Positions 34,401-40,400 of a stretch of 64,000 nucleotides of DNA are shown here, piece by piece; the first letter of the stretch is position 1, and every line of letters starts with the position of its first letter. The DNA lies in assembly GCA_963677495.2 (NCBI GenBank), contig CAXXOU010000003.1, positions 384,001 to 448,000 of the forward strand, in the 5' to 3' direction. Position numbers: made by a program. Origin of the DNA: Candidatus Cloacimonadales bacterium (lineage in GTDB: Bacteria; Cloacimonadota; Cloacimonadia; Cloacimonadales; JAFGVF01).

Positions 34401-37400
34401 CATGGCAGCCGGTGTATCAATAATTATGATATCACAAACGGTTTTCAAGTCATTGATAATATCCTTAAATCTTTCACTATGGTAAAGATGAGCGACACTA
34501 GGAGGGCATTTACCTGTAGGTAATATCATTAAATTATCAATTCGTGTTTTCTGAATAACTTCATGAATTGCCATCTGTTCAGTCAACACTTCGGAAAAGC
34601 CGAAAGCTTTAGTTTGTTTGTAATATCTTGAGATTTGGGGATTATAGAAATCAGCATCAACTAAAAGAGTTTTAGTATTATTATTCGCCAAAGCTATCGC
34701 TAAATAGTTAGTAATGGTTGACTTTCCTTCTCCCTTGAGAGAACTAACCACAGCTATGGCATTGTTTCTTTTATTAAGAATTAGATACCTGAAGTTCAAC
34801 GCTATTTCATTAAAAACACTTCTTACAAGTTCCTGATTATGTACTTCATCATCTGTTTTCTTAGCAGTTTGTGCATCAAGTTTTAAAGGGTTAAATTTGA
34901 ATTTTGGTATTGTCCCAATTACCGGAATATTAGGATATACTTGCAGTAGCTTTTTGATGCTACTTATCTTATTGTCAAACCTGGTTAATAAGAAAACTAA
35001 TGCAACGCTAAGAGCTAGCCCAAAAGCGAATCCATTCAGAAGAGCCATAAAAAGTTTTCCCCCTAAATGATTTTTAGGGACTGTAGCTTCTTCTAGTTGA
35101 ACGATTCTGTTAAGATCTACGTTAGCACTCAATCTAACATTGTTTAGCTGATTTTGTAGGTTTGTAATAGTTAGAATTAGTGCGTTTTGCTCCCGTTGCT
35201 TTGATTTGAGAATCGAGTTTTCTTCAGGACTAAGCTCCATATCGTCAATAATCTTCCTCAGAGCATTACGCTTTTGCTTTAAAGATATTGCCTTAGTTTG
35301 GGATTCTACAAGTTTCTTTAGAATTTGCTGCTTAAGCGGATTTTGCCCGACACTTCTCATTTGAATACTTTCTTCAACACCTTCAGAAATGAGAGTTCTG
35401 ACATTGGTTATATTCTTTTTAAGACCAATGACTTTAGGGTGGTTCTCTCCGTAAATAGTTAAGGCTCTAGCCAGCTCAACTTCAAGATTCATTAGCTTAA
35501 TCTTCAAAGGTTCACTATATGTTGTCTCAGTTACGTATGTCGAATCTTCTTCATTTAGCTTATTACTTAACACTTTTATATTTGATTCTTCTGCTTCCAG
35601 ATCAACCTCAATAGAAGTAAGTGTACCTTTGAAACTATTCAATCTTTTCAGGTTATCATCAAGATTTTCCCCATAGTTTCTGAAATCATTTCTTGAATAC
35701 AGAGATTTGGTAAGCACATTCAGTGAGTCAAGATCATCCGTCTTTGCCCTAATCTGCGTTTCCAGGTAATCAATTGTTTTTGTAAGGTTTTTCCTTCTAA
35801 CATAGCTATCATAGTCTTTCAAAGCTGTGAAATAGCTATTTGCAACATCGGTAGCTAGTACCGGATCTAGTGAAGTTGAGGAGATAACTAAAATAGATTC
35901 ATTTGTAGATGAACTTGAGCATCTGATCATACCTCGTGCTGCTCTTTGAGAAACTCTTCCATTAAGGTTCTCCGCAACTAACTTTGCAACATCTGAAGAG
36001 TAAACAATTTCTACCCATGTTGCTATGTCCATTGAGTTTTTTACTATAGGCTTATTGTTGATTACCTTGAGCTCAATTGAGTCTTCCTGAATAAGAATTC
36101 TTGTACTAGTTTTGTATACAGGAATCTGTCTCGAGTGATAGACATATGCACCCACTAATCCAAGAATCGTAAAAGCCAGAATTATCCACTTGTTTCGATA
36201 AGCAACTTCCAGATATTCAATCAATGAGGGCTCACTATTTTCATTTGGATTTGAAATAAATCCTGACAATTTTGAGTCATCTTCTTCTCTAATTGGCTCT
36301 TGATCGTCTATCTTAGCATTAGATGTTTGTGAAACCTGAGTTTCGATTTGTGCTTCAGAGGAAAAAACACTTTGGGAATCTTCAGTAGTTTCATTGGAAT
36401 CATTTAAATCGAGATTATCTCTTTCTAAATCATTTTCCTTTTGCTTTCTTATTTCAGTTATTGAAAGCCGTCTTTTTGACATTACATTTCCCTACCATGA
36501 TAAGCTAAGTCAGTGAATACCATTTCCATCGTATCCTTATCAATTAGCTTTGCTTTCTCTGCAGAAGCAACATCCATTGCAATTTTACAAGCACGATTTA
36601 TTTCCCGCGGGATGCCTGAAGTCTTTCTATAGATAACTCTCAAAGCATCTGCTGTGAAAATTCTCTGCTTTGCACCAGATACCTTCAATCTATATTCAAC
36701 ATATGAGCTGGTATCATCTGAGCTCATATGGTTTAAGTGAAATCTCATCCCGATTCTTTGGTCAACCTGAGGAAGTTTTCTAATACTTTTCATGATAGCT
36801 GGTTGTCCAATGAGAATGAGTTTAATTGGGCAAAAATAGTTATAATTAATGTTAGTTAGGTCCTTTAAGAGATCCAAGTCTTTTGCTGAAATTTTCTGAG
36901 CCTCATCAAGAAATATATATATTAAACCTTTTGTGTACAGAAGTTCATCTTCAATGTACTTTTGCAACATTTTGAAAAGGTAATATCTTTTTTTTGGTAG
37001 TTTCATTGCATCTGTATCCAGAATCTGAGAAAGCACTTCTGTAAGTATCTCATTGTAAGTGAAAGATGTTGAGTCAATGTTAACAACTATATTGTTCATA
37101 TTACTTTTTTTAAGTTCAGAAATCAGTACCATCTTAGTTATCGTTTTACCGGTTCCGATCTCTCCGCTAAGTAATCCCAGATTCATGCTTTGAGAATTAA
37201 CCACATATTTAAGTCGCTCCAAAGCTTCATAATGGTCAGTACTTTTATAAAAGAATTTTGGGTTATTATTGTCCTCAAATGGTGGTTCATTAATATTCCA
37301 AAAGCTATAATAATCTATCAATATTACTCCTATTTTCTCTGGCTAATTTTTATTTCAACTCTTCTATTTTTATATCTATTCTCTTCACTATCGTTTGCAA

Positions 37401-40400
37401 CTAAAGGCTTGAACTCGCCATATCCCATTATCTGTAACTGATCAGCAGTGAAGTATCCGTTACGAATGAAGAATTTAACAATACTCAATGCTCTAGCAGT
37501 AGATAGCTCCCAATTTGAAGCATACTTATTATTGGCAATAGGTACGTTATCGGTATGACCTTCTATCCTAATTTGCCAGTTATCATCATCCTTAATAACA
37601 TTTTTAATTTCAATTGCTATTTTCATTAAAGTATCATGAGACAACCATCTAAGCTCAGCTTCTCCTGATTCAAAAAGTATCTCGCCCGGTACAGAAATCA
37701 CTTTTTCATTAATATCACCGTCAAGTTTGTTTTCAAGCGAGTCAACTATAGTCTGAGCAGCCTCAAGTTGTTTCTTCTGTTCCTCAGCTATTGTTTTCCA
37801 ACCAGTCTCAGTATCTCCAATCACGAAATAGAAAACAAAGAAGATGAGTAACAGAGTCATCATATCAGCATAAGGAACCAAAGCAGTATAGAATCCAGAG
37901 AAGTCATTATCAGGAGTGTTATTAGTACTCTCCTCAATCTCTTTAATGACTTGCTTCGATTTACCTTTAAAATCCTTAGTATTAAGCATAGATCTTTGTT
38001 AATTCTGTTCTGATAATTTCAGAGTTGCGCTTTTCAATAACACCTGATATACCTTGAATAATAATTTCTCTAGAAATAAACTCATGCTCCGAGCGTGAAG
38101 ATATTTTACCTGCTATCGGTCTAAATATTACAACTGACAAAACTAGACCATATAGTGTAGTAACGAGTGCAAGACTCATTGCTTGCGGGATAACAGCTGG
38201 ATCAGCAATATTGCCAAGCATAGCAATCAATCCAATCACAGTACCAATCATGCCAAACATCGGAGATATATTACTCGCTACACTAAAAATCTTTGCTGCA
38301 CGTAATCCTGATCTCAGAATCGATCTACTCTCAGATTCGAGAAATTCCGAAATCCTTTCTTTAGGTATATTATCTGCTAACATAGTAATAGTTGTCAATA
38401 GAAAAGGAATGTTTTGAACTTCGTCGTATCCTTGTATCTCGATAAAGCTAAGAGTTCTGGAGTCTTTACTAACACCAACCATAATGTCTACCATATCATC
38501 ATGTGTTGTAGGTGGTGTGAAGTAAACTGAGCTCAAAGTCTTTAATGAATCCTGAAGATTAGAAATGGAGTAAGTTGCTAATAAAGCTGCAATTGTTCCT
38601 CCAAGAGTAACCAATAATGCAATAGGATCAAAGTATTCTATTAAAGTTCCTTTCGCACTAATAGCTATGAGAATTATTGCAACACTTAGTATGATACCGA
38701 TTAATGTACTTATTTTCATGCTAATCCTTTAAAAACTTAGTATTTGACGAATCTTTCTTAATGAATAGTTAAGGATTGTATTTTTCTCTTTCTTGCTCAA
38801 CTCACCGTAAGATTCAATATCTTCTTTAATAATCATTATTGCTCGTTCTGATAGCTGTGAATAGAATTTACTCTTAATCTTAGAGTTCACGCTTGCAAGA
38901 AACTTCACGAGTTCTAGGTGGGTTAATTCAAGAGAAATCTGTTCAATCTGGACATTAGAAAGCACAAGGATATCTTCCAAAAGGAAAACTTTATCTGATA
39001 TTTCTTTAGCCTTGTATGAATCCACAAGCTGAATTGAATCGTAAAGATTCTGTGAAACTTCAAAATTGGAATTGTTAATTATTTTTGCGAGAAGTCCAAC
39101 ACCTTCGAGTTGAATGGCTTCCTTCTCCATTACTTCTAGATATTTGTTATAAAGACCTACAACCAATATTTTTAGGTCCAGTTTGAGCTTTGTTTGGTTT
39201 GAAAGCATAGCCTGAATAATCTGGTTGCGATTCTTAGTAACATGTTGGAAAAAGTTACCAGCTTTTGAAGGAGATATTTGGGAAAGAATAAATGCAATAT
39301 CTTCAGGAGTTTCCTCTTCAAGTATTTCTGCCATGTTTTCATCTGAAAGTTCTTCTAAAAAATCAAATCTTGTAGGCATAGCATCGTCTTCTTCATCTTT
39401 TAAAACTCTGACTTTTAAGGGTTCAAGAGGAACTTTGGGGTGTGAACTTTCGACCTGAGCTGTTTGAATAACATCAGGCATCTTAGCACTGCTTATAGCT
39501 TCTATGTTTGATACTTTTATCTTTCTCATCGATTTTGCAATGATTCTCATTCCGGATCTAATGTTATTTAGTAAAAGGAACATTAAGAAAATTACAATGA
39601 TAAAGAAATATAGTTGATAATTGTTTGCTTTAGGTTTACTCATTTCAGCGAGCATAGCCTCAGTTTTAATATCTAAAATATCGCCCTGAACTTCATTGAT
39701 TGTTATAATATCTCTAATCTCATTCTCAAGGAAAATTATCAATGTTTGAGATGTTTTAAGAGGTACTTTCACACTAATCTTCTTTCTTAATATCTCGGTA
39801 GGAATCACATCTTTAAGATCAGTTTCAACAATCTTGTTATCTGTCTTACCAACCGGTAAACCGGGTAAACTCATACTTGGATCATACTTAAAGTCAGATG
39901 ATTTAGCTTCGAATAGATTGTATTTCAAGTCTAAATCAACACCAACGATGCATTCACCAACAAATGGCTTAACAATATCTTCAATTCGGTTAGCAAGCTC
40001 ATTTTCAGCTTTTAACTCAGCAAGCGAACTGGTTGCTTCAGAGTTAAGATTTGCAAAAATGAACAAGATAGAAAAAATCAACAGAAGCAGTTTAATTTTT
40101 CTTATCATCTATTCCTCCATATCTTGTATGTATTTATATCTACATGAGAAACTAGGCAAGTAAAAATTTATAATTTTTTTGTTTGACTTCACAAAAAACC
40201 CCAGCTATTAATGCAGTGATAAGGAGCGATCATGTATTATAAACATACCCAAAAGACTCGTATATTAACAATATTCGTGTTATTTACGTCCCTAACTAGC
40301 CTTGTTGCAGTGATTTCTTTTAACACTTCTATTTGGAACGGTAATCATTATATTTCCGGTGAAACCTCATTTGATTATTTTTCTTATGAAGTGCAGAACG

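What a model noticed while it worked through the whole genome (the two positions that open the first line are those of the whole stretch)
37330..40108. A flagellum-less rotor-stator operon: FliF(RBM3)-FliG fusion with MotA/MotB
g01347 encodes one 459-aa membrane protein made of a signal/anchor helix, a periplasmic ring-building domain like RBM3 of the flagellar MS-ring protein FliF, a second membrane helix, and the middle and C-terminal (torque) domains of the rotor protein FliG; it is followed by MotA- and MotB-type stator genes (g01346, g01345), while the genome has no other flagellar gene. I read this as a minimal ion-driven rotary machine, a ring of FliF/FliG-fusion subunits turned by MotAB stators, that works outside any flagellum, here possibly on the neighbouring polysaccharide-export genes (GspA-like ATPase, Wzc-type co-polymerase/tyrosine kinase, LytR, Wza). 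If true it is a new kind of bacterial rotary mot [...]
Evidence so far: Pfam: FliG_C on residues 360-445 (E 6e-11); MotA_ExbB on g01346; MotB_plug + OmpA on g01345. Profile of 9 orthologues against PDB sequences: FliG 3hjl_A E 3e-33, residues 250-459 = FliG 110-320 (middle + C domains); the engineered Vibrio FliF-FliG fusion 8z4d E 2e-21. Torque-helix motif S-x-R-A...K-E-D-[IM]-E kept, R421 invariant. AF2 with the alignment: pLDDT 70; helix 2-20, alpha-beta-beta-alpha-beta domain 28-148, helix 162-195, disordered linker, helical FliG part 248-456. Domain 26-161 alone (pLDDT 68): best of 48,161 PDB representatives are FliF MS-ring 6scn_A Z 12.7 (rmsd 2.5, 93 aligned, residues 234-438 = RBM3), 8z5v_A Z 12.7, 8z4d Z 11.4, then SpoIIIAG 5wc3 Z 9.1, PrgK 2y9j Z 8.3. 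[...]
(Added by a program. Inside this text positions count along the whole contig: contig position 384,001 is position 1 of the stretch shown here. "Call 12" and the like, gene names such as g00115 and contig names such as C1 are that model's own, and its searches are not shown. The text may have been shortened before it was handed on; [...] marks where a part breaks off. The agent that wrote the report below was given it as the finding of a first reader that could run no searches.)

Follow-up and report, generated by a model that had tools for sequence, protein, structure and literature searches.

The report
Flagellum-free rotor-stator beside T9SS adhesin
A bacterium without a flagellum keeps only the torque-making core of the flagellar motor, as a fused FliF-FliG ring protein plus MotA/MotB, and always encodes it next to a giant surface adhesin and its outer-membrane carrier, which suggests an undescribed rotary machine of the cell envelope.

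Summary
Window 38729-40108 (-) encodes a 459-aa protein: N-terminal hydrophobic helix, periplasmic domain whose best structural matches are FliF RBM3 (Z 12.9/12.8/11.4), second membrane helix, then FliG middle and C domains (profile against PDB, E 4.5e-36). The charged torque-helix residues R422, E429 and D430 are invariant. PomA-like MotA and OmpA-type MotB follow. The 99.46%-complete Cloacimonadota genome gave no hit for FliF/YscJ, FlhA, flagellin or FliM/N.

The exopolysaccharide genes are in the same operon here but adjoin the module in only 11 of 34 related loci. The constant partners are the divergent genes: a giant FG-GAP/Ig-repeat protein with a T9SS type-B (CHU_C) tail, and a PorV/PorP-like barrel fused to TPR repeats. 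These five genes stay together through rearrangements and in a distant clade. The barrel-TPR region occurs in 21 of 24 fusion-bearing genomes and 0 of 97 others.

I read it as a flagellar-derived rotor-stator that acts on a T9SS adhesin and its anchor. It is not the general T9SS motor: SprA occurs in 115 of 121 genomes, the fusion in 24. There is no experiment, and rotation and coupling are inferred. This scan noted the same cassette earlier on other DNA. Nine literature searches found no description.

The parts
38729..40108 (-). FliF(RBM3)-TM-FliG(MC) fusion protein, 459 aa (P0001)
   Evidence: ORF. Pfam FliG_C 52 bits. Profile against PDB FliG E 4.5e-36. AF2 and fold searches.
40039..40105 (-). 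N-terminal hydrophobic helix (residues about 2-23), either a signal peptide or a membrane anchor, after a basic MIRKIK start
   Evidence: Kyte-Doolittle windows 1-25 score above 1.8, with 3 K/R in residues 1-6. AF2 helix 2-22. Many orthologues end the segment with small residues such as A-x-A (alignment). Cleavage is inferred, not tested.
39659..40027 (-). Periplasmic ring-building-motif domain like FliF RBM3 (residues about 28-150), with a low-confidence insertion (about 62-104) that carries the invariant SLPGLP motif (80-85)
   Evidence: Domain model: alpha-beta-[insert]-beta-alpha-beta. FliF Z 12.9/12.8/11.4. SLPGLP is invariant in 25 of 25 sequences and in 8 of 8 of a distant clade.
39548..39622 (-). 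Second membrane helix (residues about 163-187), followed by a K/R-rich cytoplasmic stretch
   Evidence: Hydrophobic windows 161-187. Residues 188-215 have 6 K/R against 2 D/E. AF2 helix 163-200.
38732..39376 (-). FliG middle and C-terminal domains (residues 245-459) with torque-helix residues R422, E429, D430; no FliG_N domain; the EHPQ motif reads E-T-P-E
37982..38719 (-). MotA/PomA-type stator A subunit, 245 aa (P0002)
   Evidence: Aligns end to end with Vibrio PomA 8brd, E 1.5e-30. NCBIfam PomA/MotP E 3e-42, under the equivalog cut-offs. Position 88 is basic (R 23, K 3, H 4) in 30 of 30 orthologues. Groups with flagellar MotA and away from ExbB.
37330..37989 (-). MotB-type stator B subunit, 219 aa (P0003): TM helix with D42, plug, OmpA-like peptidoglycan-binding domain
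   Evidence: MotB_plug 25.6 bits, OmpA 66.3 bits. The channel Asp is kept in 26 of 27 orthologues.
36482..37321 (-). AAA ATPase of the ExeA/GspA-like, PEP-CTERM-associated type (P0004), same operon
   Evidence: TIGR03015 E 2.1e-42, under the cut-off. AAA_22.
33936..36482 (-). Wzc-like co-polymerase and tyrosine autokinase, 848 aa (P0005)
   Evidence: Wzz and AAA_31. TIGR01007 116 bits, over its cut-off.
32851..33936 (-). LCP (LytR-CpsA-Psr) family protein with an N-terminal SLBB-like segment (P0006)
32118..32921 (-). Wza-like polysaccharide export protein (Poly_export + SLBB) (P0007)
40109..40231 (.). 123-bp divergent intergenic region between the motor/EPS operon and the adhesin/barrel operon
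   Evidence: ORF coordinates. The sigma-70 consensus scan gave nothing above shuffles.
40232..44908 (+). Giant surface-protein candidate, 1558 aa (P0008): FG-GAP repeats, Big_5 Ig-like repeats, C-terminal CHU_C (T9SS type-B sorting) domain
   Evidence: FG-GAP E 4.8e-35, Big_5 E 2.4e-12. CHU_C scores 28.2 bits on the last 130 aa (cut-off 27) but 21.1 bits on the whole protein. The tail is conserved across all neighbours.
44917..46380 (+). Outer-membrane beta-barrel of the PorV/PorP/FadL kind fused to a linker with three invariant D-T motifs and C-terminal TPR repeats, 487 aa (P0009)
   Evidence: NCBIfam PorV_fam E 1.3e-10, 41.4 bits, under the cut-off of 90. Toluene_X, TraF_2 and TPR hits. Orthologues hit PorP_SprF in 8 of 26. 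Co-occurs with the fusion in 21 of 24 genomes against 0 of 97.

Best explanation
This is a non-flagellar envelope machine built from the torque-making core of the flagellar motor and genetically tied to a T9SS type-B adhesin and its outer-membrane anchor.

Proposed working:
1. MotA/MotB form a flagellar-type, ion-driven stator. It is fixed to peptidoglycan by MotB's OmpA-like domain and conducts ions past D42.
2. Copies of the 459-aa fusion assemble through the periplasmic RBM3-like domain into a ring in the inner membrane, with a ring of FliG middle and C domains underneath.
3. The MotA cytoplasmic loop (basic residue 88) pushes on the FliG-like torque helix (R422, E429, D430) and turns the ring.
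4. The periplasmic face of the ring passes the movement or force to the TPR and linker part of the PorV/PorP-like barrel. That face carries the invariant SLPGLP loop in the place where FliF has its collar.
5. The barrel holds the giant FG-GAP/Ig-repeat protein on the surface through its CHU_C tail. The output would be movement, exposure or handling of this adhesin: a gliding-like or adhesion function.

In this lineage the machine is co-transcribed with a Wzc/Wza-type exopolysaccharide export set. That fits a combined adhesion and matrix role.

Shown here: the domain identities, residue conservation, gene linkage, co-occurrence, and the absence of hits for other flagellar genes. Inferred: ring formation, rotation, stator-rotor contact, every step beyond the inner membrane, and the output.
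For: Parts:
- FliG MC homology: E 4.5e-36.
- RBM3 fold: Z 12.9/12.8/11.4, about 4 Z units above the next unrelated rows. Foldseek agrees.
- R422, E429 and D430 are invariant in 25 of 25 sequences.
- MotA aligns end to end with PomA. MotA position 88 is basic in 30 of 30 and the MotB channel Asp is kept in 26 of 27. MotB has a plug and an OmpA domain.

Not a relic:
- dN/dS is 0.05-0.22 in both halves of the fusion.
- 24 of 121 sampled Cloacimonadota genomes carry the full-length fusion. Only 2 of these have FlhA and an ordinary FliG as well, so it coexists with a real flagellum and also stands without one.

Linkage:
- Of 34 related loci, MotA was found in 29, MotB in 26, the barrel-TPR in 30 and the giant protein in 29. 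Most misses lie at truncated ends; L026, L031 and L037 are exceptions.
- The five genes stay together in at least three gene orders.
- They also stay together in 3 of 3 long loci of a distant fusion clade, which shares about 21-32% identity over BLAST local alignments with the window's fusion.
- The barrel-TPR region was found in 21 of 24 fusion-bearing genomes, always adjacent, and in 0 of 97 others.

T9SS tie:
- CHU_C matches 24 of 28 neighbour tails, 17 over the cut-off, including the window's.
- PorP_SprF matches 8 of 26 barrels, 5 over the cut-off. PorV_fam matches the window's barrel.
- The genome has SprA and at least 150 Por_Secre_tail proteins.
- Passages of PMC9143113: type-B CTD proteins are held on the surface by cognate, adjacently encoded PorP-like barrels. 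SprB-SprF is the mobile gliding pair. PorP also binds PorE, which the paper describes as an OM-associated periplasmic protein that binds peptidoglycan.
Against: - There is no experiment of any kind, and no RNA run holds the locus.
- No rod, hook, export gate or other shaft was found that could carry torque through peptidoglycan.
- The periplasmic domain is small, and its putative coupling loop is modelled at low confidence (pLDDT under 50 for residues 66-70, 80-84 and 91-102).
- The window's barrel does not reach any curated cut-off for PorV or PorP. TIGR04131 (type-B tail) scores only 13.6 bits.
- MotA's second charged position (PomA E96) is not conserved.
- The FliM-binding EHPQ motif is not kept, so there is no switch complex.
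- In this window the motor genes are translationally packed with EPS genes, not with the adhesin genes.
- Two loci (L031, L037) carry a shorter ORF in place of an OmpA-type MotB, and one MotB (L034) has Asn at the channel Asp.
- Genomes of the sample are related, so the co-occurrence counts overstate independence.
Confidence: 0.45

Rival explanations
1. One reading: the rotor-stator energises or organises exopolysaccharide export or polymerisation by the co-transcribed ExeA-like ATPase, Wzc, LCP and Wza proteins.
For: In the window the seven genes from the fusion to Wza form one tightly packed minus-strand operon (gaps or overlaps of 9 bases or fewer up to LCP). The four EPS genes adjoin the module in 11 of 34 loci in three different arrangements: downstream (L007-11, 15, 16), upstream (L018, 19, 39) and interleaved (L020).
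Against: 23 of 34 loci show no EPS gene in the fetched DNA. Several of these have 9-10 kb on both sides with housekeeping genes instead. 0 of 3 loci of the distant clade have them. Wzx/Wzy- or Wzc/Wza-type systems are not known to need an ion-driven rotor (my own knowledge). The strictly co-occurring partners are the adhesin and the barrel-TPR protein.
Confidence: 0.15
2. A non-rotary use of the parts. The fusion is a static membrane platform on which MotAB works as a force or energy transducer, in the manner of ExbBD-TonB or TolQR-TolA, or as a mechanosensor. It could, for example, energise secretion or release of the one type-B cargo at the SprA translocon, or signal surface contact, without a ring making continuous turns.
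For: There is no shaft, bearing or switch protein. The periplasmic domain is a single small RBM with a conserved peptide-like loop. No GldL/GldM was detected in this genome or over the cut-off in 121 genomes of the phylum, although SprA is present in 115 of them, so T9SS energisation in this phylum is open.
Against: The torque-helix charges, MotA's rotor-facing basic residue and the whole FliG MC fold are conserved as in rotating motors. RBM3 is a ring-building module in FliF and SpoIIIAG, which are the best fold matches. 57 of 57 genomes of family f3 have SprA without the fusion, so it is not the general T9SS energiser.
Confidence: 0.2
3. A decaying remnant of a lost flagellum with no present function.
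For: 15 of 121 genomes of the phylum have FlhA and an ordinary FliG, so flagellar genes occur in some lineages of the phylum.
Against: dN/dS is 0.05-0.22. Functional residues are invariant. The architecture is conserved over 30 representative clusters at E of 1e-30 or better. The fusion coexists with complete FlhA and FliG in G001 and G020. Partners are fixed across rearrangements.
Confidence: 0.02

Closest known systems
Torque-generating core of the bacterial flagellar motor: FliF MS-ring (RBM3/S-ring), FliG, MotA5B2/PomA5B2 stator
   Same: The RBM3-like fold, FliG middle and C domains with the charged torque helix, a PomA-like A subunit, and a MotB with channel Asp, plug and OmpA-like domain.
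   Different: There is no FliF RBM1/RBM2 (PF01514 gave no hit), no long beta-collar, no FliG_N and no EHPQ motif. FliM/N, FlhA and flagellin gave no hit in the genome. Ring protein and rotor protein are one chain. The neighbours are T9SS-type and EPS genes.
Laboratory FliF-FliG fusions of Salmonella and Vibrio (PDB 8z4d/8z4g; PMC11481574, seen as search listing and abstract only)
   Same: FliF and FliG are joined covalently. The abstract reports a purified MS-ring made of FliF-FliG fusion proteins. 8z4d is a sequence hit (E 2.6e-26) and a fold hit (Z 11.4).
   Different: Those fusions are full-length FliF plus full-length FliG (945 aa) inside a flagellum. This one is a natural 459-aa minimal form with only RBM3 and FliG MC, in genomes that mostly lack flagellar genes.
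T9SS and gliding apparatus of Bacteroidota: GldLM/PorLM motor, GldKN ring, SprA translocon, the type-B adhesin SprB with its PorP-like anchor SprF, and PorE
   Same: A giant repeat adhesin with a CHU_C type-B tail lies next to a FadL-like PorV/PorP-type barrel. SprA and many CTD cargo proteins are in the genome. An ion-driven 5:2-type motor is encoded alongside (passages of PMC9143113).
   Different: The motor is MotAB with a FliG/FliF-type rotor, not GldLM. No GldL was found over the cut-off in 121 genomes. The barrel is fused to TPR repeats. A preprint on T9SS rotation states that T9SS proteins bear no sequence resemblance to flagellar motor proteins (10.1101/2024.09.23.614571, passages).
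Other RBM ring proteins: SpoIIIAG, SctJ/PrgK/EscJ
   Same: The ring-building-motif fold: 5wc3 Z 8.8, 4oyc Z 8.2, 6rwx Z 6.9.
   Different: These score lower than FliF RBM3, have no FliG fusion and no stator partner.
Non-flagellar 5:2 motors: ExbBD, TolQR, AglRQS, ZorAB ('GIT' group of PMC12505986; review PMC9389320 seen as listing only)
   Same: An ion-driven stator unit used outside a flagellum.
   Different: This stator is of the flagellar ('FIT') kind: it aligns end to end with PomA and has a plug and an OmpA-like domain. It comes with a FliG-type rotor, which none of those systems has. It groups with flagellar MotA, far from the genome's own ExbB genes (passages of PMC12505986).

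Membership tests
FliG (flagellar rotor/switch protein) | FliG C-terminal domain with the charged torque helix (E. 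coli R281, D288, D289) | tested here: met
   Pfam FliG_C 52 bits against a cut-off of 23.3. R422, E429 and D430 are invariant in 25 of 25 sequences and align with the T. maritima R...D-E positions. The E. coli numbering comes from PMC12505986 passages.
FliG (flagellar rotor/switch protein) | FliG middle domain | tested here: met
   The orthologue profile aligns over the FliG M and C domains (1lkv 4-213, E 4.5e-36). The single-sequence Pfam FliG_M score is only 21.1 bits, under the cut-off of 25.
FliG (flagellar rotor/switch protein) | EHPQR motif of the middle domain that binds FliM | tested here: not met
   The window reads E-T-P-E where T. maritima has E-H-P-Q. Only the E is invariant (E266). 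That this motif binds FliM is recalled, not tested.
FliG (flagellar rotor/switch protein) | N-terminal domain that binds the FliF C-terminus; full-length equivalog score | tested here: not met
   No FliG_N hit. TIGR00207 scores 70.3 bits against a cut-off of 226.7 and matches only positions 111-305 of 338.
FliF / MS-ring protein | RBM3 fold (S-ring module) | tested here: met
   Z 12.9 (6scn_A), 12.8 (8z5v_A; rmsd 2.8 over 95) and 11.4 (8z4d) out of 48,161 chains. Foldseek E 6e-5 to 7e-4. Weak sequence hits to FliF chains only.
FliF / MS-ring protein | RBM1 and RBM2 (Pfam YscJ_FliF) and the long beta-collar | tested here: not met
   No PF01514 hit in the genome. The periplasmic part is about 125 aa, with a low-confidence insertion of about 40 aa.
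FliF / MS-ring protein | Assembly into a ring of some 33-35 subunits | not testable with these tools
   Inferred from fold likeness only.
Flagellar stator MotA/PomA ('FIT' type) | Four-TM A subunit with a rotor-facing cytoplasmic domain; full-length likeness to PomA/MotA | tested here: met
   Residues 1-240 align to PomA 1-238, E 1.5e-30. Position 88 is basic in 30 of 30. It forms a clade with Cloacimonadota flagellar MotA (support 100) against ExbB. NCBIfam equivalog cut-offs are not reached (144.6 bits against 341).
Flagellar stator MotB/PomB | Channel Asp in the TM helix, plug, and OmpA-like peptidoglycan-binding domain | tested here: met
   D42 is kept in 26 of 27 orthologues. MotB_plug 25.6 bits (cut-off 24) and OmpA 66.3 bits.
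T9SS type-B CTD cargo (CHU_C / TIGR04131) | C-terminal type-B sorting domain | tested here: inconclusive
   CHU_C scores 28.2 bits on the last 130 aa (cut-off 27) but 21.1 bits on the whole protein. TIGR04131 scores 13.6 bits against 35. Of the neighbour tails, 24 of 28 match at E 0.01 or better and 17 of 28 exceed the cut-off.
PorP/SprF or PorV family outer-membrane barrel | Family profile over the curated cut-off | tested here: inconclusive
   For the window's protein: PorV_fam 41.4 bits against 90, and no Pfam PorP_SprF or PorV hit at E 0.01 or better. For orthologues: PorP_SprF in 8 of 26 (5 over the cut-off of 22.3), and weak N-terminal PorV hits in 13 of 26 (none over 27).
T9SS/gliding motor GldLM (PorLM) | Presence of GldL and GldM | tested here: inconclusive
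   No hit in the own genome for TIGR03513, TIGR03517 or PF12081. No GldL over the cut-off in 121 genomes of the phylum. No positive control genome rang, so divergent homologues cannot be excluded.

The most novel reading that the evidence does not exclude
The flagellar rotor-stator core (an RBM3/FliG ring turned by MotAB) has been re-used, without rod, hook, filament or export apparatus, as the engine of a separate envelope organelle. That organelle would move or operate a T9SS type-B adhesin through a PorP-like barrel-TPR connector. This would be a hybrid of flagellar and T9SS/gliding parts, and in effect a further class of ion-driven rotary machine. It is present in Cloacimonadota and, from the related fusions seen here (an Elusimicrobia protein and a distant metagenomic clade) and from earlier unchecked notes of this scan, in several other phyla.
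Probability: 0.3. Interest if true: 0.92.

Novelty: new variant of a known kind. Interest (0 to 1): 0.8.

Why it matters
FliG and flagellar-type MotAB are treated as hallmarks of the flagellum. A recent survey describes the flagellar stator clade as specialised for flagellar rotation (PMC12505986, passages). A conserved, selected rotor-stator pair in genomes without flagella would show that the torque core is a portable module. Its fixed partners are a T9SS-type adhesin and the adhesin's outer-membrane carrier.

If it works as proposed, it bears on three questions:
- How the flagellar motor core relates to simpler machines, whether as an ancestor-like minimal form or as a later reduction.
- How surface adhesins are driven or handled in FCB-group bacteria in which no GldLM was detected.
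- The smallest protein set that can make a membrane ring turn.

It also offers a small rotor of 459 aa, with one ring protein, that may be easier to study structurally.

Tried and rejected
1. Complex prediction of the RBM3-like domain (A2) with the barrel protein's linker and TPR part (A3) gave no verdict (score 0.18, mark 0.32). It counts neither for nor against binding.

2. The look-up of sequencing runs: four holders from one study, and no RNA holder listed. Read laying was not run, because contigs cannot show expression.

3. The sigma-70 promoter and terminator scan of 31800-47000 gave 67 promoter-like sites against 61.5 expected and 8 terminator-like sites against 7.2. This is uninformative.

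4. I tested the idea that the module replaces GldLM as the general T9SS motor of the phylum. SprA occurs in 115 of 121 genomes, including 57 of 57 of family f3. That family has no fusion (0 of 57) and no GldL hit. I rejected the general-motor version. What powers T9SS here stays open.

5. The phylum search with CHU_C matched 115 of 121 genomes. The profile also picks up type-A tails, so it does not tell fusion-bearing genomes from the others.

6. The FliG tree (FastTree, 179 rows) separates the fusion clade (60 rows, support 98) from all ordinary FliG. It does not show whether the fusion arose from Cloacimonadota flagellar FliG. The midpoint root falls on the fusion branch. No AU test was run.

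7. The MotA tree (quick IQ-TREE, 45 rows) does not resolve module MotAs as one clade, and it carries long-branch warnings.

8. I tried to search the 3.5-Mb metagenome contig behind L075 for FlhA. The record is not held (error), so whether the distant clade's host is flagellated is unknown.

9. Flanks of the non-EPS loci (MobA-like, XdhC, MscS-like, CTP synthase and others) showed no further conserved partner.

10. The other MotA_ExbB hits of the genome: L003 and L005 are ExbB with two ExbD genes each. L002 and L004 were seen only as ORFs of 207 and 205 aa with weak likeness to P0002.

11. Nine literature searches found no paper describing a non-flagellar FliF-FliG/MotAB module. Subscription journals and supplements were not covered.

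Full report
WHAT IS THERE

On the minus strand, seven ORFs run from 40108 down to 32118, with gaps or overlaps of at most 9 bases up to the LCP gene. They are:
- the 459-aa protein P0001 (38729-40108);
- a 245-aa MotA/PomA-like protein (37982-38719);
- a 219-aa MotB-like protein (37330-37989);
- an ExeA/PEP-CTERM-type AAA ATPase;
- a Wzc-like co-polymerase and tyrosine kinase;
- an LCP protein;
- a Wza-like exporter.

Two genes are transcribed divergently from a 123-bp spacer. The first is a 1558-aa protein with FG-GAP repeats, Big_5 Ig-like repeats and a CHU_C tail (40232-44908). The second is a 487-aa outer-membrane barrel with C-terminal TPR repeats (44917-46380).

THE FUSION PROTEIN

P0001 has two hydrophobic segments, about 1-25 and 161-187. 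It starts with the basic sequence MIRKIK, is acidic between the helices, and has a K/R-rich stretch after the second helix. This fits a topology with the middle part outside and the C-terminal half in the cytoplasm. Whether the first helix is cleaved as a signal peptide is not tested.

The C-terminal half is FliG-like:
- Pfam FliG_C scores 52 bits.
- TIGR00207 aligns positions 111-305 of 338.
- A profile of 25 orthologues hits T. maritima FliG MC at E 4.5e-36, A. aeolicus FliG at 3.1e-35 and the Vibrio FliF-FliG construct at 2.6e-26.
- R422, E429 and D430 are invariant in 25 of 25 sequences and align with the torque-helix charges.
- There is no FliG_N domain, and the EHPQ motif reads E-T-P-E.

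The periplasmic domain was modelled alone at pLDDT 73.6. It folds as alpha-beta-[insertion]-beta-alpha-beta. Among 48,161 PDB representatives its best matches are FliF RBM3: 6scn_A at Z 12.9, 8z5v_A at Z 12.8 (rmsd 2.8 over 95 residues) and 8z4d at Z 11.4. SpoIIIAG (8.8) and PrgK (8.2) follow, with unrelated folds from 8.6 down. Foldseek on the full model agrees. The N-domain profile's only near-significant PDB sequence hits are FliF chains (E 0.0066 and 0.29).

The insertion (about residues 62-104) is modelled at low confidence, yet it carries the invariant motif SLPGLP (80-85). The motif is invariant in 25 of 25 sequences and again in 8 of 8 of a distant clade. From my recollection of the FliF structures, the insertion sits where FliF carries its beta-collar. 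I did not test this.

THE STATOR

P0002 aligns end to end with PomA (8brd, E 1.5e-30). Position 88, which corresponds to PomA R88, is basic in 30 of 30 orthologues (R 23, K 3, H 4). The position of PomA E96 is not conserved.

P0003 has the channel Asp (D42, kept in 26 of 27 orthologues), a MotB plug hit over its cut-off, and an OmpA-like domain.

In a tree, the module MotAs and the flagellar MotAs of flagellated Cloacimonadota form one clade (support 100), apart from the genome's ExbB genes. Two of the four other MotA_ExbB loci examined are ExbB-ExbD-ExbD sets.

NO FLAGELLUM

The genome is 3.41 Mb in 4 contigs and 99.46% complete. It gave no hit for YscJ_FliF, FHIPEP, Flagellin_N or FliMN_C, while each control rang in 4 of 14 known genomes. 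FliG_C has a single hit, this gene.

WHO HAS IT

Related loci are almost all labelled Cloacimonadota. I searched a sample of 121 genomes of the phylum:
- 24 carry the full-length fusion.
- 15 carry FlhA. These are exactly the genomes that also have an ordinary FliG of about 350 aa.
- Only 2 genomes (G001, G020) have both. Each of these has two MotA genes, one beside the fusion and one elsewhere.

So the fusion is a separate system. It exists without a flagellum in 22 of 24 carriers and beside one in 2.

Pairwise dN/dS is 0.05-0.22 in both halves of the gene.

In a FastTree of the FliG MC region (179 rows), the fusions form a clade of 60 rows (support 98) apart from all ordinary FliG. This includes the 12 Cloacimonadota flagellar FliGs. 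The tree does not tell where the fusion came from.

The all-against-all representative search found 30 full-length relatives at E of 1e-30 or better. It also found further natural fusions of about 500-550 aa. Of the six of these scanned, four (P0092, P0119, P0144, P0165) show a FliF C-terminal (PF08345) match plus FliG M and C domains; P0088 and P0105 show FliG domains only. One, P0144, is an Elusimicrobia hypothetical protein. Another, P0165, is a Desulfomonilia protein annotated as FliG.

WHAT IT IS LINKED TO

Counts over the 34 related loci:
- MotA in 29;
- MotB in 26;
- the barrel-TPR protein in 30;
- the giant protein in 29 (28 by BLAST plus L021 by its tail);
- the four EPS genes in 11.

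Most misses of the first four lie at truncated ends. There are exceptions:
- L026 has 8 kb upstream of the fusion without either partner.
- L031 and L037 have a shorter ORF where MotB would be.

The five genes keep together in at least three orders:
- divergent, as in the window;
- giant-barrel-fusion-MotA-MotB;
- fusion-MotA-MotB-giant-barrel.

Flanks of the non-EPS loci are housekeeping genes.

A distant fusion clade (alignment A4) shares about 21-32% identity over BLAST local alignments with the window's fusion. It shows fusion-MotA-MotB-giant in 3 of 3 long metagenomic loci. The barrel-TPR gene follows in 2, and the third locus is cut at that point. None has EPS genes.

In the phylum sample, the barrel's linker and TPR region (A3) was found in 21 of the 24 fusion-bearing genomes, each time next to the fusion. 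It was found in 0 of 97 others. The three misses are fragmented assemblies. These genomes are related, so the counts overstate independence.

THE T9SS CONNECTION

All giant neighbours share a tail of about 90 aa, whatever their body: FG-GAP/Big_5 of 1558 aa, Big_5 of 957 aa, or cadherin/Big_9 of 2799 aa. CHU_C, the Pfam type-B T9SS signal, matches 24 of 28 tails. Seventeen are over the cut-off, among them the window's at 28.2 bits. On the whole window protein the score is only 21.1 bits, and TIGR04131 is far under its cut-off.

The barrel hits NCBIfam PorV_fam (41.4 bits, cut-off 90). Among 26 orthologues, PorP_SprF matches 8 (5 over the cut-off) and PorV matches 13 weakly. So the barrel belongs to the FadL-like PorV/PorP kind, but its exact family is not settled.

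The genome has a SprA of 2063 aa and at least 150 Por_Secre_tail proteins.

From passages of PMC9143113:
- Type-B CTD proteins are held on the surface by cognate, adjacently encoded PorP-like barrels.
- SprB-SprF is the mobile gliding pair.
- PorP also binds PorE, which the paper describes as an OM-associated periplasmic protein that binds peptidoglycan.

The window's barrel-TPR fusion therefore looks like a PorP-like anchor carrying a built-in TPR domain. As I recall, PorE also contains TPR repeats; I did not check this here.

NOT THE GENERAL T9SS MOTOR

No GldL or GldM was detected in the genome, and no GldL over the cut-off in 121 genomes. No positive control rang for these families, so divergent forms may exist.

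SprA occurs in 115 of 121 genomes, including 57 of 57 of family f3. That family has no fusion. The module is thus an accessory system tied to one adhesin-anchor pair. It is not the phylum's T9SS engine.

HOW IT MOST LIKELY WORKS

Shown here: the identities of the parts, the conserved functional residues, selection, linkage and co-occurrence.

Inferred by homology: MotAB forms an ion-driven stator fixed to peptidoglycan. The fusion forms a membrane ring through its RBM3-like domain. MotA pushes on the FliG-like torque helix.

Inferred from gene linkage alone: the ring's periplasmic face, perhaps the SLPGLP loop, engages the linker and TPR part of the barrel protein. The barrel holds the giant adhesin by its type-B tail, so the output is movement or handling of that adhesin. 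In this lineage the function is combined with exopolysaccharide export in one operon.

A structure-prediction test of the proposed periplasmic contact gave no verdict (see Tried and rejected).

Weak points of the model:
- no shaft through peptidoglycan;
- no switch proteins;
- low model confidence for the coupling loop;
- no expression data.

COMPARISON AND NOVELTY

The closest known system is the flagellar motor core. The closest single construct is the laboratory FliF-FliG fusion (8z4d). The closest functional analogue is the T9SS/gliding apparatus with SprB-SprF, whose motor (GldLM) is unrelated in its rotor.

PMC12505986 (passages) describes flagellar-type stators as a clade with features specialised for flagellar rotation. 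It describes non-flagellar homologues as lacking the plug, the OmpA-like domain and the torque interface. This stator has the plug and the OmpA-like domain and aligns end to end with PomA, yet it sits in a flagellum-less genome.

Nine full-text searches found no description of such a module. Subscription journals were not covered.

This scan's own earlier notes describe the same kind of cassette in another Cloacimonadales genome and in Bacteroidota, Fibrobacteria, Bdellovibrio-like bacteria, Elusimicrobiota and Margulisbacteria. The cassette there is a FliF-FliG fusion, MotAB, an outer-membrane barrel and a TPR protein, sometimes with a T9SS-type giant protein. These notes are unchecked. They agree with what I found independently before reading them.

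I class the finding as a new variant of a known kind: flagellar motor parts in a new, non-flagellar setting. There is a real chance that it is a new class of rotary envelope machine.

Noticed in passing
own genome and phylum sample: SprA is present in 115 of 121 sampled Cloacimonadota genomes, and this genome has at least 150 Por_Secre_tail proteins. No GldL was found over the cut-off in any of the 121, and no GldM in this genome. What energises T9SS in this phylum is open, or its GldLM is too divergent for the profiles. No positive control rang.
   Followed up: partly
phylum sample: 15 of 121 Cloacimonadota genomes have FlhA plus an ordinary FliG of about 350 aa, so some lineages of the phylum look flagellated. 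G001 and G020 carry both a flagellar set and the fusion module, with two distinct MotA genes.
   Followed up: partly
window 19152-22222 (contig C3:403152-406222) and contig C2:87986-91001: T9SS-tail ORFs of identical length (269 aa and 559 aa) with identical E-values appear on contigs C3 and C2. This suggests a duplicated segment, or a repeat shared between contigs.
   Followed up: no
window 45904-46140 (P0009 residues about 330-410): The linker between the barrel and the TPR repeats holds three invariant D-T dipeptides in short strand-like motifs (D28/T29, D40/T41 and D46/T47 of alignment A3). Their role is unknown.
   Followed up: no
L031:9490-10029, L037:9579-10001, L034:9501-10082: Two related loci have a shorter ORF (179 and 140 aa) after MotA that did not match MotB at E below 1e-5. 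The MotB of L034 has Asn in place of the channel Asp.
   Followed up: no
L021:11-8410: In one locus the giant neighbour is a 2799-aa cadherin-like/Big_9 repeat protein instead of an FG-GAP/Big_5 one. It ends in the same conserved tail as the others. The body of the adhesin is exchangeable and the tail is not.
   Followed up: partly
G112:C24:21976-23370 and G112:C74:27094-28560: One genome of the sample has two full-length copies of the fusion, 471-aa and 515-aa ORFs.
   Followed up: no
family f12 genomes (1.5-1.6 Mb), e.g. G008:C1:810198-810689: ORFs of 670-677 aa match only profile positions 224-403 of the fusion (E about 1e-15). They may be MgtE-like proteins with the FliG-related N domain. 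These small genomes also gave no hit for SprA or the CHU_C tail.
   Followed up: no
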